Shown piece after piece: positions 34,981 to 36,570 of a DNA stretch of 64,000 bases; position 1 is the stretch's first letter, and each line of letters starts with the position of its first letter. A program made the position numbers and the translations under genes. Source of the stretch: an uncultured Lentisphaerota bacterium (GTDB lineage Bacteria > Verrucomicrobiota > Kiritimatiellia > RFP12 > UBA1067); contig CAMKJU010000008.1 of the NCBI GenBank assembly GCA_946413265.1, positions 1,379 to 65,378 on the forward strand. The letters are read 5' to 3'. The notes beneath the pieces are model-generated. The model saw only the letters and a program-made list of their open reading frames with translations, did not search any database and was not told the DNA's origin.

Positions 34981-35547
34981 CACAGCAGGATTGACATAGC
35001 AGCATGAGAGGTGATGTCATGGGACTTGTTAAAACCAGAAGACTTGCGGCGATGCAGAAGCAGCAGCGCGCGAAGGCGGGGATGAAACTGCCAACGCCCA
35101 AACCGGCGCGGAAGTGCGCGCCGTTCCCACAGTACCCTTCAAAACCTCCCCACACGAAGTTCCTTCGCCCAAACCTGTAGCACTTCCCCTGTTGACCCGC
35201 TACGTCACATATTCGAATATGTGACGTGCCGTGCAATGGGGGAGAGCGATGGTCATGCGAGGAGGAGGCGAGATTATTGGACTTGTGAAGATCTGGCGGC
35301 GGCTCGCCGAGGACGGCTCGCCCCACCGGGCGGCGGTCGCGGGGCGACCGCCCTACCGGGCGATGCAGAAGCAGCAGCGCGCGAGGGGTGAAGCTGTCGA
35401 TGGGCGACGGCACGCGGAAATGCGTGTCATTCTCTCCGTCATTTCCAAAGTTCCCCCGCAAAATTCCTTCCGATGTCGTCCTCACCATTGCGCGGTACGT
35501 CACATATTCGAATAAGTGACGTACCGCGTTATGGGGGAGAGCGATGG

Positions 35548-36141
35548 TCAGGAGAGGGAGAGGTCGATCAAGATGCGGGAGGTTTCGTCCGAAGGTTCGC
35601 GCCAGATGACATCGTCGCCGCAGACATTGGCCAGCCCGCATGTGACGATGTACGAGAGGTGCCGACGCAAGTTGAGTTCCGTGAGTCTGGTCCACTGGCC
35701 GATCTGCGCGAGGTCAGTTCGTCCCTTGATGCGGATGAGGCCGAGTAGGTGTACGCGCGTCGCATTCGCGAGTGCCGGGAGTATGGACAAGAATTTCGGT
35801 GCCGGTGGTCTGGTGCCATTGACTGAAGCCCAGGCGGCCCGTTCTGCGAAGAAATACTTCCTCAACGCCTTGAAGAGCGTCACGGCCTTGGCGTCGGAGG
35901 CGTCAGGGGCGGGATAATAGAGGTTGTAGCGTCCTGCGCGGCAGGATGCCACGAGACCGCATACGTCCTGAAGCTCGGCGAGGTAGATGCTCGTTGCCGG
36001 CTGCCCGGCGTGAACCTCGTCGGCGATCTGCCCGACGGGCAATCCGCCTTCCTCGGGAAGGGTCATGACCTTTCGCAGGACATCGAGCCTTTCCTCGTTC
36101 GCAAGTTTCTTGCAGATTTTCCAAAACTCTCTTTTTTTCAT
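35548..36141 (-). CDS. ArsR/SmtB-like winged-helix transcriptional regulator (two wHTH-like halves)
   Basis: 198 aa starting MKKREFWKICKKLANEERLDVLRKV. The only credible minus-strand gene in this region. Flanked by 38-bp palindromes, with a TCACATG iteron-like array upstream. Confidence 0.5.
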   Translation of the reverse strand: MKKREFWKICKKLANEERLDVLRKVMTLPEEGGLPVGQIADEVHAGQPATSIYLAELQDVCGLVASCRAGRYNLYYPAPDASDAKAVTLFKALRKYFFAERAAWASVNGTRPPAPKFLSILPALANATRVHLLGLIRIKGRTDLAQIGQWTRLTELNLRRHLSYIVTCGLANVCGDDVIWREPSDETSRILIDLSLS

Positions 36142-36191
36142 AGGTTGATCCTTTCTGGTTGTCACTGACACGCGCAGTATACAAAAAATCC

Positions 36192-36266
36192 GTGTGATAA
36201 TCTTCACATGAAAATCACACAATTATCACATGATTTTCACACGCACGTGATGATTTCCTCACGCGA
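36192..36266. promoter_or_regulatory. Iteron-like array of ~11-bp spaced TCACA(T/C)G repeats upstream of the ArsR-like gene
   Basis: tgtgataatcTTCACATGaaaaTCACACaattaTCACATGattttCACACGcacgTGATGAtttccTCACGCG. Shares the GTCACAT half-site with the nearby palindromes. Confidence 0.5.
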
Positions 36267-36570
36267 AGCCATCGCTAATCTTATACGCGGTACGTCACAT
36301 ATTCGAATAAGTGACGTACCGCGTAATGGGTGAGAGCGATGGTCATGTGAGGAGGTGGCGAGATTATTGGAATTGTGAGGACCAGGCGGCGGTTCGCCGA
36401 GGACGGCTCGCCCTACCAGGCGGCGCGGCCGGAGTCCGCGCCCTACCGGGTGGGGCGGAAGTGTTGCCAATGTGGGAGTGTTGCCAGTTCCAATGTTGCC
36501 AGTTTCCAATTGGGGATTGAAATTGGCTCATGCGGTTCACAAAATGAGGTGTCCCAAGGGGCAGGAGATT

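What the first reader, a model, noticed from the sequence alone, without database searches (positions are those of the whole stretch)
35196..36325. ArsR-like regulator framed by 38-bp near-perfect palindromes and a TCACATG iteron-like array
cgcggtacGTCACATATTCGAATAaGTGACgtaccgcg occurs at 35491..35528 and 36286..36323. A third copy with a perfect 22-bp core is at 35204..35225. These sit just 3' and 5' of the minus-strand wHTH gene. The gene's upstream region (36192..36266) has five to six ~11-bp-spaced TCACA(T/C)G repeats that share the half-site. This looks like an autoregulatory operator and iteron system, or a recombination or origin-like site of a small integrated element.
Basis: seen in the sequence. 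Interest (0 to 1): 0.55.

Follow-up and report, generated by a model that had tools for sequence, protein, structure and literature searches.

The report
Fused ArsR regulator bracketed by palindromes
The palindromes are real and are most likely the binding sites of the small DNA-binding protein encoded between them, which belongs to an unstudied but widespread family whose genes are almost always bracketed, front and back, by their own matching palindrome.

Summary
The 22-bp core GTCACATATTCGAATAWGTGAC occurs three times in the window, all at this locus (0 expected). A phased TCACA x4 array lies upstream of the gene.

The gene (35548-36141, minus strand) encodes two fused ArsR/SmtB winged-helix domains, not one.

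Comparative data point to a cognate protein-site pair:
- In 51 of 75 related loci (23-97% protein identity) the gene is framed by matching palindromes. The median gaps are 44 nt before the start codon and 12 nt after the stop.
- Palindrome variants stay symmetric and track protein clades.
- In sister clades the 5' copy sits at the -35 position of a consensus extended -10.

I therefore read it as an autoregulatory operator. The TCACA array is a subclade-specific auxiliary operator.

The origin or iteron-replicon reading is not supported. There are no plasmid or phage relatives and no Rep fold.

Several features remain unexplained:
- The exact core also sits at 5-8 unrelated intergenic loci per related Kiritimatiellia genome.
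- Homology between contigs often ends exactly at the palindromes.
- Symmetry extends past the core with locus-specific sequence.
- All copies in a locus point the same way.

A looping, insulating or recombination-junction role for the 3' and dispersed copies remains open.

The parts
35548..36141 (-). Gene for a 197-aa single-chain protein made of two ArsR/SmtB-type winged-helix domains (residues about 8-90 and 112-195). The stop codon is at 35548-35550.
   Evidence: ORF. PDB profile hits to ArsR, SmtB, HlyU, CmtR and CadC on both halves. NCBIfam NF033788 matches in 2 stretches. AF2 pLDDT 92.5, pTM 0.87, with two a1-a2-a3-a4-b-b-a5 units. Each half superposes on HlyU, NolR, SqrR and BigR at about 3 A rmsd.
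36285..36329 (.). P3: the 5' (distal) palindrome, core 36294-36315. It lies 142 nt upstream of the start codon, in the divergent intergenic region shared with the Kinase-PolyVal gene (36685-37542, + strand).
   Evidence: (I5). Position conserved in L037 and L040/L041.
35485..35529 (.). P2: the 3' palindrome, core 35499-35520. The extended palindrome begins 19 nt after the stop codon (the 22-bp core 27 nt).
   Evidence: (I4). A 3' copy is found at a median 12 nt after the stop across the family. None of 40 copies has a T-run, so it is not a canonical terminator.
35202..35227 (.). P1: a third copy, a perfect 26-bp palindrome (core 35204-35225), 295 nt beyond P2. It heads a 177-nt unit that is paralogous to the one headed by P3.
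   Evidence: (I8, D1).
36193..36263 (-). Half-site array. In gene orientation it reads TGTGA x4 at exact 11-bp phase (+ strand TCACA at 36204, 36215, 36226, 36237). There is one inverted copy (36193-36197) that forms TGTGA-N6-TCACA, and two degenerate copies (about 36247-36251 and 36259-36263). Proposed auxiliary operator.
   Evidence: unique, 0 expected. Conserved in L037-41, L048, L069 and L051 only.
36177..36184 (-). Proposed proximal promoter: an extended -10 TGTATACT (+ strand agtataca), about 36 nt upstream of the ATG. The RBS is AAAGGA.
   Evidence: Read from the sequence. Conserved in L037. Homologous to the tgGTATAAT / tgaTATACT elements of sister clades. The generic promoter scan missed it because there is no -35 hexamer.
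36280..36285 (-). A -10-like TATAAG lying 8 nt from P3 on the gene side. This is the same geometry as the palindrome-linked -10 of sister clades, so it may be a distal or ancestral promoter.
   Evidence: Sequence compared with the geometry. Inference only.
35491..35557 (+). A 67-nt direct-repeat unit (palindrome plus ATGGGGGAGAGCGATGGTCA...). Other copies are at 35196-35262 and 36286-36352. In this copy the unit contains the gene's stop codon and 3' UTR.
   Evidence: (D2).
35476..36338 (-). The palindrome-promoter-gene-palindrome module as delimited by homology to relatives: 35476-36338 against L040/L041 (95%), 35485-36326 against L037 (86%). L016 lacks about 35557-36286.
   Evidence: The same pattern appears in the pairs L055/L057, L061/L063, L046/L049 and L035/L055.

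Best explanation
The palindromes are the cognate DNA-binding sites of the protein encoded between them. That protein is a covalently fused pseudo-dimer of two ArsR/SmtB winged-helix domains, from an uncharacterised family.

Proposed mechanism (inferred):
- One polypeptide, or a small oligomer, binds the 22-bp site (half-site CACA-yy-TT), with a recognition helix in each half.
- In most of the family the 5' copy overlaps the -35 region or abuts the start codon, so binding represses the gene's own promoter.
- In the window's subclade the 5' palindrome (P3) has moved about 140 nt upstream. A phased array of TGTGA half-sites on one face of the helix bridges it to the TGTATACT promoter, probably by cooperative binding.
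- The 3' copy (P2) is a second operator, not a terminator. It probably acts by looping with P3 (795 bp apart) or as a roadblock or insulator against transcription from the variable neighbouring cassettes.
- Further copies elsewhere in the genome, including next to accessory and defence cassettes, would be additional targets of the same protein.
- The signal sensed is unknown. The conserved cysteines (C10 in the whole family; C61, C164 and C168 in the close clade), together with best structural matches to thiol-sensing ArsR members (SqrR, BigR, HlyU), make a redox or persulfide input a reasonable guess.

Shown: the sequence features, the fold, the conserved framing, the co-variation, the promoter geometry and the dispersed copies.
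Inferred: binding, repression, looping and the ligand.
For: - The core is unique to this locus in the window.
- The protein is a two-domain ArsR/SmtB fold. Both recognition helices are conserved down to 25% identity (T50, S51, R160, H161).
- The exact 22-mer was found in 34 stretches of about 10 PVC MAGs. About 0.14 would be expected by chance in 596 Gb (my arithmetic). Every multi-copy cluster flanks a 25-28%-identical homologue.
- All close homologues (52-97% identity) are framed by variants.
- In a de novo search, 51 of 75 loci are framed by matching palindromes, and most of the rest still have a cognate-type 5' copy.
- Variants remain symmetric (TTCGAA/TTGCAA; GTCAC/TACAC/TTCAC; CACACTTT; CCACCTTT) and track protein clades and recognition-helix sequence.
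- The palindrome ends 8-9 nt before tgGTATAAT or tgaTATACT in the Kiritimatiellia clade, and 0-3 nt before the ATG in the distant clade.
- The TGTGA array is present only where the palindrome is far upstream.
- There is no conserved partner gene, as expected for a stand-alone autoregulated factor.
- ArsR/SmtB repressors classically bind imperfect 12-2-12 inverted repeats over their own promoters (established knowledge of the family).
Against: - No binding data exist.
- The two recognition helices differ (PATSIYLAEL against ELNLRRHLSYI) although the half-sites are near-identical, so the stoichiometry is unclear.
- A conserved operator immediately 3' of the stop codon is not a normal feature of ArsR autoregulation.
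- Dispersed copies show no promoter preference. My count is 5 divergent, about 9 tandem and 3 convergent intergenic regions. Their neighbours have no functional theme.
- Dispersed copies are embedded in longer repeat units that have multiplied within genomes.
- Symmetry extends beyond the core with diverse sequence: 48% of sites have at least 3 bp of extension, against 1.8% of controls.
- Synteny breaks sharply at the palindromes.
These points suggest something beyond a plain operator.
Confidence: 0.68

Rival explanations
1. A REP/BIME-like dispersed palindrome family with a dedicated binding protein. The palindrome and its adjacent tail are a repeat element that multiplies within genomes. The single-copy protein gene is framed by its own repeats, as RAYT genes are framed by REPs. 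The protein serves the repeats (structuring, protection or mobilisation by a host enzyme) rather than regulating genes.
For: - The gene is framed by cognate palindromes, and there are 5-8 dispersed intergenic loci in each of the best-sampled related MAGs, 3 in a fourth.
- Copies lie in any intergenic class, including between convergent genes.
- Copies sit in mosaic repeat units shared on one side only, for example L020/L023, L008/L013/L021/L030 and the window's 67-nt and 177-nt units.
- Tandem arrays occur with periods of 65, 90 and 100-123 bp.
- There is lineage-specific co-variation.
- Hairpin-forming extensions are common.
Against: - The protein has no nuclease or transposase domain.
- Copy number is tens per genome, not hundreds.
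- The flanking copies are direct, not inverted: 17 of 17 adjacent pairs.
- The 22-bp core is identical across proteins that are only 25% identical, which argues for selection on protein contacts rather than on a hairpin.
- The 5' copy has a precise promoter geometry.
Confidence: 0.14
2. A site-specific recombination (att-like) site that marks cassette junctions. The palindrome, read as 8-6-8 with a symmetric TTCGAA or TTGCAA centre, would be the crossover site of an unlinked tyrosine recombinase (Xer-like). The ArsR protein would be an accessory factor or simply one of the cassettes. Cassettes would be gained and lost at these sites, as with integron attC sites or Acinetobacter pdif modules.
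For: - Homology between contigs ends at the outer palindrome edge in many independent pairs.
- L016 has a single palindrome where the window has palindrome-gene-palindrome.
- In L037 the palindromes separate the helicase, NERD, AbiEi/AbiEii and regulator units.
- All copies in a locus have the same orientation, as expected after integration of circles.
- The window region is an accessory or defence island with cassette indels relative to L006, L016 and L041.
Against: - No recombinase lies in the window island or among the common neighbours.
- Other repeat modules without the palindrome also sit at indel junctions.
- RecA recombination between the 67-177-nt direct repeats explains L016.
- Distant family members sit among housekeeping genes and still have framing palindromes.
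- L041 is collinear with the window at a larger scale.
Confidence: 0.1
3. A chromosome-architecture system. The palindromes would be anchoring sites for a nucleoid-organising or insulator protein, analogous to parS/ParB, matS/MatP or Noc-binding sites. The copies around the gene would simply be the highest-affinity cluster.
For: - There are tens of strongly conserved palindromic sites per genome, irrespective of gene orientation.
- The core is invariant while the protein diverges to 25% identity, as for multi-site architectural proteins.
- matS (GTGACRNYGTCAC; from my own knowledge) shares the GTGAC/GTCAC boxes.
Against: - Positions along chromosomes could not be obtained.
- The family's 5' copies have promoter-specific geometry.
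- Outside Kiritimatiellia no dispersed copies were sampled.
- No partner ATPase or condensin gene is linked.
Confidence: 0.05
4. An iteron-type replication origin with a Rep-like two-winged-helix initiator, belonging to a small integrated plasmid or phage.
For: - The two-winged-helix protein, direct repeats sharing a half-site with an inverted repeat at the gene's promoter, resembles RepA/RepE/pi logic (my own knowledge of Rep_3 initiators).
- The array is statistically real.
Against: - There is no Rep_3 homology; both halves are ArsR/SmtB.
- The repeats are 5-bp cores at 11-bp phase, not 17-22-bp iterons.
- The array is absent from most of the family.
- There are no viral, phage or plasmid relatives.
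- The module is only about 845 bp, with no other replicon genes.
Confidence: 0.02

Closest known systems
ArsR/SmtB-family autorepressors (SmtB, CzrA, CadC, ArsR; thiol-sensing BigR, SqrR, HlyU)
   Same: Same domain fold and recognition-helix pattern in both halves. A roughly 22-26-bp inverted-repeat site overlaps the gene's own promoter. The gene is small and stand-alone.
   Different: Two domains are fused in one chain instead of forming a homodimer of 100-120-aa subunits. The canonical a3 CXC metal site is absent (alignment). A second, identical site lies just after the stop codon in most members. Additional dispersed copies exist. There is no adjacent regulated efflux or detoxification operon.
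HlyU acting on a cruciform-forming palindrome at exsBA in Vibrio parahaemolyticus (Getz et al., NAR 2023, PMC10325908)
   Same: An ArsR-family wHTH protein binds an inverted repeat or palindrome that can extrude as a cruciform and thereby controls a nearby promoter (abstract). The palindromes here are 38-45 nt with strong hairpin potential and non-random symmetric extensions.
   Different: Cruciform formation has not been tested here. HlyU is a conventional homodimer that acts at one virulence locus as an anti-silencer. It is not a gene-framing, multi-copy system.
REP elements and their RAYT (TnpA-REP) genes; BIMEs (Nunvar et al. 2010, PMC2817692)
   Same: A single-copy gene is flanked by the same palindromes that are dispersed in intergenic regions, often in mosaic or tandem arrangements, with lineage-specific pairs of protein and palindrome.
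   Different: The protein is a non-catalytic wHTH, not an HUH/Y1 transposase. There are tens, not hundreds, of copies. The flanking copies are in direct, not inverted, orientation. The core sequence is conserved over deep protein divergence.
Rep_3 plasmid initiators (RepA of pPS10, RepE of F, pi of R6K) with iterons and an inverted-repeat operator
   Same: A two-winged-helix single chain. Direct repeats and an inverted repeat share a half-site. The gene autoregulates through the inverted repeat (my own knowledge of the family).
   Different: No sequence or fold match to Rep_3. The repeat unit and spacing differ. There is no replicon context.
Pyrococcus furiosus PF0095 and other tandem winged-helix proteins (ScpB)
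   Same: Two wHTH domains in one chain of about 200 aa. These are the top full-length Foldseek hits.
   Different: The superposition is poor (rmsd 16-17 A, TM about 0.28), so the domain arrangement differs and no homology is implied.

Membership tests
ArsR/SmtB transcription factors | Winged-helix fold a1-a2-a3-a4(recognition)-b-b-a5 with sequence similarity to the family | tested here: met
   Met for both halves. PDB profile E down to 1.5e-8. NF033788 matches in 2 stretches. AF2 secondary structure. Foldseek prob 1.0 at about 3 A rmsd to HlyU, NolR, SqrR, BigR and SmtB. Pfam HTH_5 is below its cutoff for the window protein (19.9 against 22 bits).
ArsR/SmtB transcription factors | Functional unit is a homodimer of about 100-120-aa subunits | tested here: not met
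   A single 197-aa chain carries two divergent domains (25% identity to each other), joined by a low-confidence linker at residues 105-115. This architecture is conserved in the family.
ArsR/SmtB transcription factors | Inverted-repeat operator overlapping the gene's own promoter (autoregulation) | tested here: inconclusive
   The geometry fits in relatives: the palindrome lies at -35 or abuts the ATG. In the window it is 142 nt upstream, with a half-site array in between. Binding and repression were not measurable with these tools.
ArsR/SmtB transcription factors | Inducer site (a3/a3N CXC, a5 His/Asp/Glu, or paired Cys) | tested here: inconclusive
   No ELCVCDL-type motif appears in the alignments. 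C10 is invariant family-wide, and C61, C164 and C168 are conserved in the close clade. The ligand is unknown.
Iteron-containing replication origin with Rep_3 initiator | Initiator homologous to Rep_3/RepA (WH1-WH2) | tested here: not met
   Only ArsR-type hits appear in Pfam, NCBIfam, PDB sequence and structure searches.
Iteron-containing replication origin with Rep_3 initiator | Four or more direct repeats of 17-22 bp at about 22-bp spacing, in a plasmid or phage backbone | tested here: not met
   The repeats are 5-bp cores at 11-bp phase inside a promoter. The array is absent from most relatives. There are no viral, phage or plasmid relatives.
REP/RAYT (BIME) systems | Gene flanked by the same palindromes that are dispersed in intergenic DNA | tested here: met
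REP/RAYT (BIME) systems | Associated protein is an HUH/Y1 (IS200/IS605-like) transposase | tested here: not met
   The protein consists of two wHTH domains with no catalytic domain.
REP/RAYT (BIME) systems | High copy number (usually more than 100 per genome); flanking REPs in inverted orientation | tested here: not met
   There are 3-11 exact cores at 3-8 loci per sampled MAG (a lower bound, because only exact matches were scanned). In the window there are 3 copies, all in one cluster. Asymmetric copies are always in direct orientation.
Integron attC / Xer-dif-type cassette junctions | Linked or identifiable tyrosine recombinase | tested here: not met
   None among the window island genes. 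None among the 25 most frequent Pfam families of 113 neighbour representatives. An unlinked host enzyme cannot be excluded.
Integron attC / Xer-dif-type cassette junctions | Gene cassettes bounded by the sites, with presence/absence polymorphism at the sites | tested here: inconclusive
   Breakpoints coincide with the palindromes in many pairs, and L016 looks like an empty site. But the palindromes lie within longer direct repeats that allow homologous recombination, and other repeat modules also mark junctions.
Intrinsic (Rho-independent) terminator | GC-rich hairpin followed by a U-tract | tested here: not met
   None of 40 3' copies has at least 5 T in the 10-nt tail, and their arms are no longer than those of 5' copies. 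The scan finds none at P2. L099 is an exception.

The most novel reading that the evidence does not exclude
The fused-ArsR protein and its palindrome form a self-framing, REP/RAYT-like or att-like system built on a non-catalytic DNA-binding protein. On this reading the protein marks or bridges palindromes at the borders of gene cassettes. Together with host recombination or hairpin-processing enzymes, it would drive cassette gain, loss and shuffling (or transcriptional insulation) in accessory and defence islands of PVC bacteria. That would make it a previously unrecognised kind of genome-organising module, not just an autoregulator.
Probability: 0.12. Interest if true: 0.8.

Novelty: new variant of a known kind. 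Interest (0 to 1): 0.5.

Why it matters
If the main reading is right, this defines an uncharacterised and fairly large family with a predicted operator for every member. The family comprises at least 87 clusters at 50% identity with E <= 1e-10, and 211 metagenome loci. Its members are single-chain ArsR pseudo-dimers, found in Kiritimatiellia and, from metagenomes, in diverse anaerobic, soil and freshwater communities (taxa not determined). The operator predictions make it immediately testable.

It also raises an unusual design rule, an operator at both ends of the gene, which bears on looping and insulation in bacterial gene control.

For the window's organism, it flags a candidate regulator or border element of a variable defence and accessory island. 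That island carries GmrSD, HNH, AbiE, RadC and Kinase-PolyVal genes.

If the recombination or repeat-element reading is right, it would add a new, transposase-free way of organising and exchanging gene cassettes.

Tried and rejected
- Rfam on 34500-38300 gave only a spurious sub-threshold plant miRNA hit on the palindrome, so there is no known RNA family.
- Terminator reading of the 3' copy: rejected.
- Phage or plasmid origin: no palindrome in IMG/VR, no phage protein match, and one weak partial plasmid hit to an ordinary ArsR-like stretch.
- Conserved partner gene or operon: none. There are 121 Pfam families among 113 neighbour representatives, and none occurs in more than 3. Neighbours of solo palindromes are mixed housekeeping and defence genes.
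- Degenerate or half-site copies elsewhere in the window: none above chance.
- The small ORFs that read through the palindromes (for example 35473-35748 and 36208-36333) were considered and dismissed. Copies differ by indels and share no reading frame.
- Hairpin covariation as proof of RNA or ssDNA structure: symmetry beyond the core is highly significant. However, part of it is lineage-specific conserved sequence (GGTAC..GTACC in the window's group, CCNGG..CCNGG in JBMNFY), which a co-evolving symmetric protein contact could also produce. This is left unexplained.
- PADLOC: the protein matches only the generic wHTH part of Csa3 (E 2e-6), so it is not a known defence regulator.
- Literature searches for the sequence, for fused ArsR proteins and for Kiritimatiellia repeats found no earlier description.
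Full report
**1. The observation**

The 38-nt near-perfect palindrome cgcggtacGTCACATATTCGAATAaGTGACgtaccgcg lies at 35491-35528 and 36286-36323. A perfect 22-bp core lies at 35204-35225.

The core GTCACATATTCGAATAWGTGAC matches only these three places in the 64-kb window, with none expected in shuffles. Relaxed searches (GTSAC-N12-GTSAC; half-sites with 2 mismatches) add nothing above chance.

The palindromes extend to 45 nt (35485-35529 and 36285-36329). As single strands they would fold at about -20 kcal/mol, z about -8.

- The palindromes are the heads of longer direct repeats: 67 nt x3 and 177 nt x2. 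The 67-nt unit contains the stop codon and 3' UTR of the gene.
- The surrounding intergenic DNA is a mosaic of several other repeat modules. These recur at 34.97, 37.5, 38.0, 42.2 and 43.6 kb.

The "TCACA(T/C)G" heptamer is not enriched in the window as a whole. However, four TCACA pentamers at exact 11-nt phase (36204-36241) are unique and not expected by chance. An inverted copy at 36193 and two degenerate copies complete the array.

**2. The protein**

The minus-strand gene 35548-36141 encodes 197 aa. It is a fusion of two ArsR/SmtB domains, not a single wHTH.
- A family profile hits ArsR, SmtB, HlyU, CmtR and CadC with both halves.
- NCBIfam's ArsR/SmtB model matches in two stretches.
- The AlphaFold model is confident (pLDDT 92.5, pTM 0.87). 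It shows two complete a1-a2-a3-a4-wing-a5 units joined by a flexible linker.
- Each half superposes at about 3 A on HlyU, NolR, SqrR, BigR and SmtB.
- No solved structure matches the full-length arrangement.

Both recognition helices carry residues that are invariant down to 25% identity (T50/S51 and R160/H161).

Public sources call these proteins only "ArsR family regulator" or "HTH domain-containing protein". I found no paper on them.

**3. Evidence from elsewhere: the palindrome and the protein belong together**

A scan of one genome per prokaryotic species found the exact 22-mer in 34 stretches. All were from MAGs labelled Kiritimatiellia, Lentisphaerae or Verrucomicrobia, apart from one contig labelled Selenomonadaceae, which is probably mis-binned. 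Each of the three best-sampled genomes had 5-8 loci, a fourth 3. By my arithmetic, about 0.14 matches would be expected by chance in 596 Gb.

Every place with several copies flanks a homologue of the window protein that is only 25-28% identical.

All closer homologues (52-97% identity) are framed too. Their variants stay symmetric: centre TTCGAA or TTGCAA, outer GTCAC, TACAC or TTCAC.

A metagenome scan returned 211 relatives. In the 80 loci kept, a de novo palindrome search showed that even members at 23-35% identity, from sludge, soil, lake and sediment samples, carry a related palindrome (CACAC-TT-N4-AA-GTGTG and variants) before the start and right after the stop.

The overall counts:
- 51 of 75 loci with both flanks available are framed by matching palindromes.
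- The median gaps are 44 nt to the start codon and 12 nt after the stop.
- Most of the remaining loci still have the 5' copy.

Site variants follow protein clades. For example, CCACC-type sites go with a distinct D1 recognition helix. This is the pattern expected of a cognate protein-site pair.

The family has 87 clusters at 50% identity with E <= 1e-10.

**4. Promoter geometry**

In the Kiritimatiellia clade the 5' palindrome ends 8-9 nt before a consensus extended -10 (tgGTATAAT or tgaTATACT). It therefore occupies the -35 region. In the distant clade it abuts the ATG. Both positions are typical of repressors.

In the window's own subclade (at least 73% identity, plus L051) the palindrome lies 130-150 nt upstream. 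The gap down to TGTATACT (36177-36184) is filled by the phased TGTGA array. That array is conserved in exactly those loci and nowhere else. I read it as an auxiliary operator that allows cooperative binding along one face of the helix.

A -10-like TATAAG lies 8 nt from P3, at the ancestral position, and may be a second, distal promoter. This is inference only.

**5. What a plain operator does not explain**

(a) The 3' copy is conserved across the family but is not a terminator. None of 40 copies has a T-run, and their stems are no longer than those of the 5' copies.

(b) In related genomes, solo copies lie in all classes of intergenic region, including between convergent genes. They sit next to both housekeeping genes (ArgRS, G6PD, LptD, ETF-QO, ExbB) and defence or mobile genes (Eco57I-type RM, Dam-like MTase, AAA_14/DUF4143, PIN, ORF6N, AbiEi/AbiEii, NERD).

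(c) Many solo copies share 45-180 nt of adjacent sequence on one side with other copies in the same genome. Palindrome-plus-tail units have therefore multiplied within genomes.

(d) Homology between related contigs repeatedly covers just palindrome-gene-palindrome and ends at the outer palindrome edge.
- Window against L040/L041 (95%): 35476-36338.
- Window against L037 (86%): 35485-36326.
- The same pattern appears in L055/L057, L061/L063, L046/L049 and L035/L055.
- L016 has a single palindrome joining the window's P2-left and P3-right flanks.
- At a larger scale the window and L041 are collinear, with whole cassettes (Kinase-PolyVal; LamG-like plus a 505-aa gene) present or absent at repeat junctions.

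(e) Symmetry continues beyond the 22-bp core with diverse sequences far more often than chance: 48% of sites against 1.8% of controls have at least 3 bp of extension.

(f) Slightly asymmetric copies (CACTTATT in one half) always point the same way within a locus: 17 of 17 adjacent pairs across 8 loci. The framing copies are therefore direct repeats.

**6. Interpretation**

Best supported (about 0.68): the palindromes are the binding sites of the fused ArsR protein, which autoregulates its gene.
- In this window it would act through P3 plus the TGTGA array on the TGTATACT promoter.
- P2 is a second operator. It may loop with P3 (795 bp apart) or insulate the gene from the variable cassettes around it.
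- The dispersed copies are further targets.
- The inducer is unknown. Conserved cysteines and the similarity to SqrR, BigR and HlyU suggest thiol chemistry, but this is a guess.

Rivals that the data do not exclude:
- a REP/RAYT-like repeat system built on a non-catalytic protein (0.14);
- an att-like junction used by an unlinked recombinase (0.10);
- a chromosome-architecture site (0.05).

The origin or iteron-replicon idea is disfavoured (0.02). The fold is ArsR, not Rep_3. The repeats are 5-bp cores inside a promoter and are absent from most of the family. There are no plasmid or phage relatives.

**7. Comparison with known systems and novelty**

By fold and likely operator logic the protein is an ArsR/SmtB-type regulator. 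It fails that family's usual quaternary definition, because it is one chain with two domains. It also lacks the canonical metal motif, and it adds the 3' operator and the dispersed copies.
- It works most like an ArsR autorepressor.
- Its palindromes recall the HlyU-cruciform case (PMC10325908).
- Its genomic pattern recalls REP/RAYT (PMC2817692), while failing that family's defining features (transposase, copy number, inverted flanks).

I rate it a new variant of a known kind, of moderate interest (0.5). An autoregulated wHTH with a palindromic operator is ordinary. The family-wide gene-framing architecture, the sharp module borders and the dispersed, symmetric-extended copies are not.

**8. 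Limits**

- No binding or expression data exist.
- The window's own genome beyond 64 kb was not available.
- The genome scan found exact cores only, so copy numbers are lower bounds.
- Chromosome positions of the sites were not obtainable.
- My gene calls in fetched loci come from a simple self-trained ORF scorer.
- Many metagenome contigs are short.

Noticed in passing
window 27000-35000 (wider: 23000-37600): A low-GC island (0.38-0.47 against about 0.6) packed with accessory and defence genes. These are AbiEii (24766-25767), two HNH_2 genes (26126-26980, 28394-29164), RadC (30933-31811), a GmrSD/HEC-06-type restriction enzyme (31836-33581), DUF2971 (33734-34549) and then Kinase-PolyVal (36685-37542). 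No integrase or tRNA was looked for at its borders.
   Followed up: partly
window 34969-35067, 37538-37636, 38045-38143; 35287, 36377, 37599, 42169; 36441, 37633, 42204, 43641: Three further intergenic repeat modules sit upstream of successive genes. One has two TTGACA boxes and an RBS-ATG GGACTTGTGAA start. One is GGCTCGCCGAGGACGGCTCGCCCYACC. One has three TGTTGCCA boxes. Related contigs (L006, L016, L041) carry the same modules, with whole genes gained or lost between them.
   Followed up: partly
window 37710-38025 and 43729-43853: A small cysteine-rich ORF has three repeats of C-x2-CGS-x-S-x-G-x-GC-x-Y (CRHCGSTSYGHGCAYG...). A 94%-identical partial paralogue lies 6 kb away. It has no Pfam match and is 96% identical to a segment of L006.
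   Followed up: no
window 19748-19857 and 23132-23241; L035 about 5750-5870: Arrays of four 22-bp-spaced short palindromes (CCCCGTGTAGGGAG in the window, ACCCCTAGGGGTAA in L035). In L035 the array lies between two copies of the ArsR palindrome. This may be the operator array of another regulator.
   Followed up: no
window 20901-21076; 14261-14306 and 52720-52772: A C-rich repeat of 22-nt period (six overlapping copies), and TGGGGAACGGGGAA-type short tandem repeats at two distant places.
   Followed up: no
window 22993-23146, 24110-24263, 25884-26037; 17140, 19681, 24207, 25981: A 154-nt repeat (93% identical between two copies) and a 33-nt hairpin-like repeat (CTAACTGGGAACGCCGCCTTCTAGGCGGCGCAC) lie between island genes.
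   Followed up: no
L042 2143-2402, L044 2855-3180, L046 847-1027, L001 6157/6280 and 6959/7075, L028 2291-2495: Downstream (and sometimes upstream) of the regulator gene, the palindrome forms regular tandem arrays with periods of 65, 90 or 100-123 bp and up to six copies downstream.
   Followed up: partly
L007 (JAEEGN010000212.1): A 2.6-kb contig binned as Selenomonadaceae is 92-97% identical to contigs of Kiritimatiellae MAGs (L009, L026, L029), so it is probably mis-binned. In all four, the palindrome lies 20 nt after a 162-167-aa gene of unknown family and 47 nt before a DUF1848 gene.
   Followed up: partly
L016 2288-3161 against window 36286-37607: The Kinase-PolyVal gene of RUG14821 appears to lack about 425 nt that are present in the window (36948-37374). 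It may be a pseudogene, or the window may carry an insertion.
   Followed up: no
L099 4538-4581: In one distant relative the 3' palindrome is extended to AAAAGCCC...GGGCTTTT, a textbook bidirectional terminator. This is the only such case among about 40 3' copies.
   Followed up: yes
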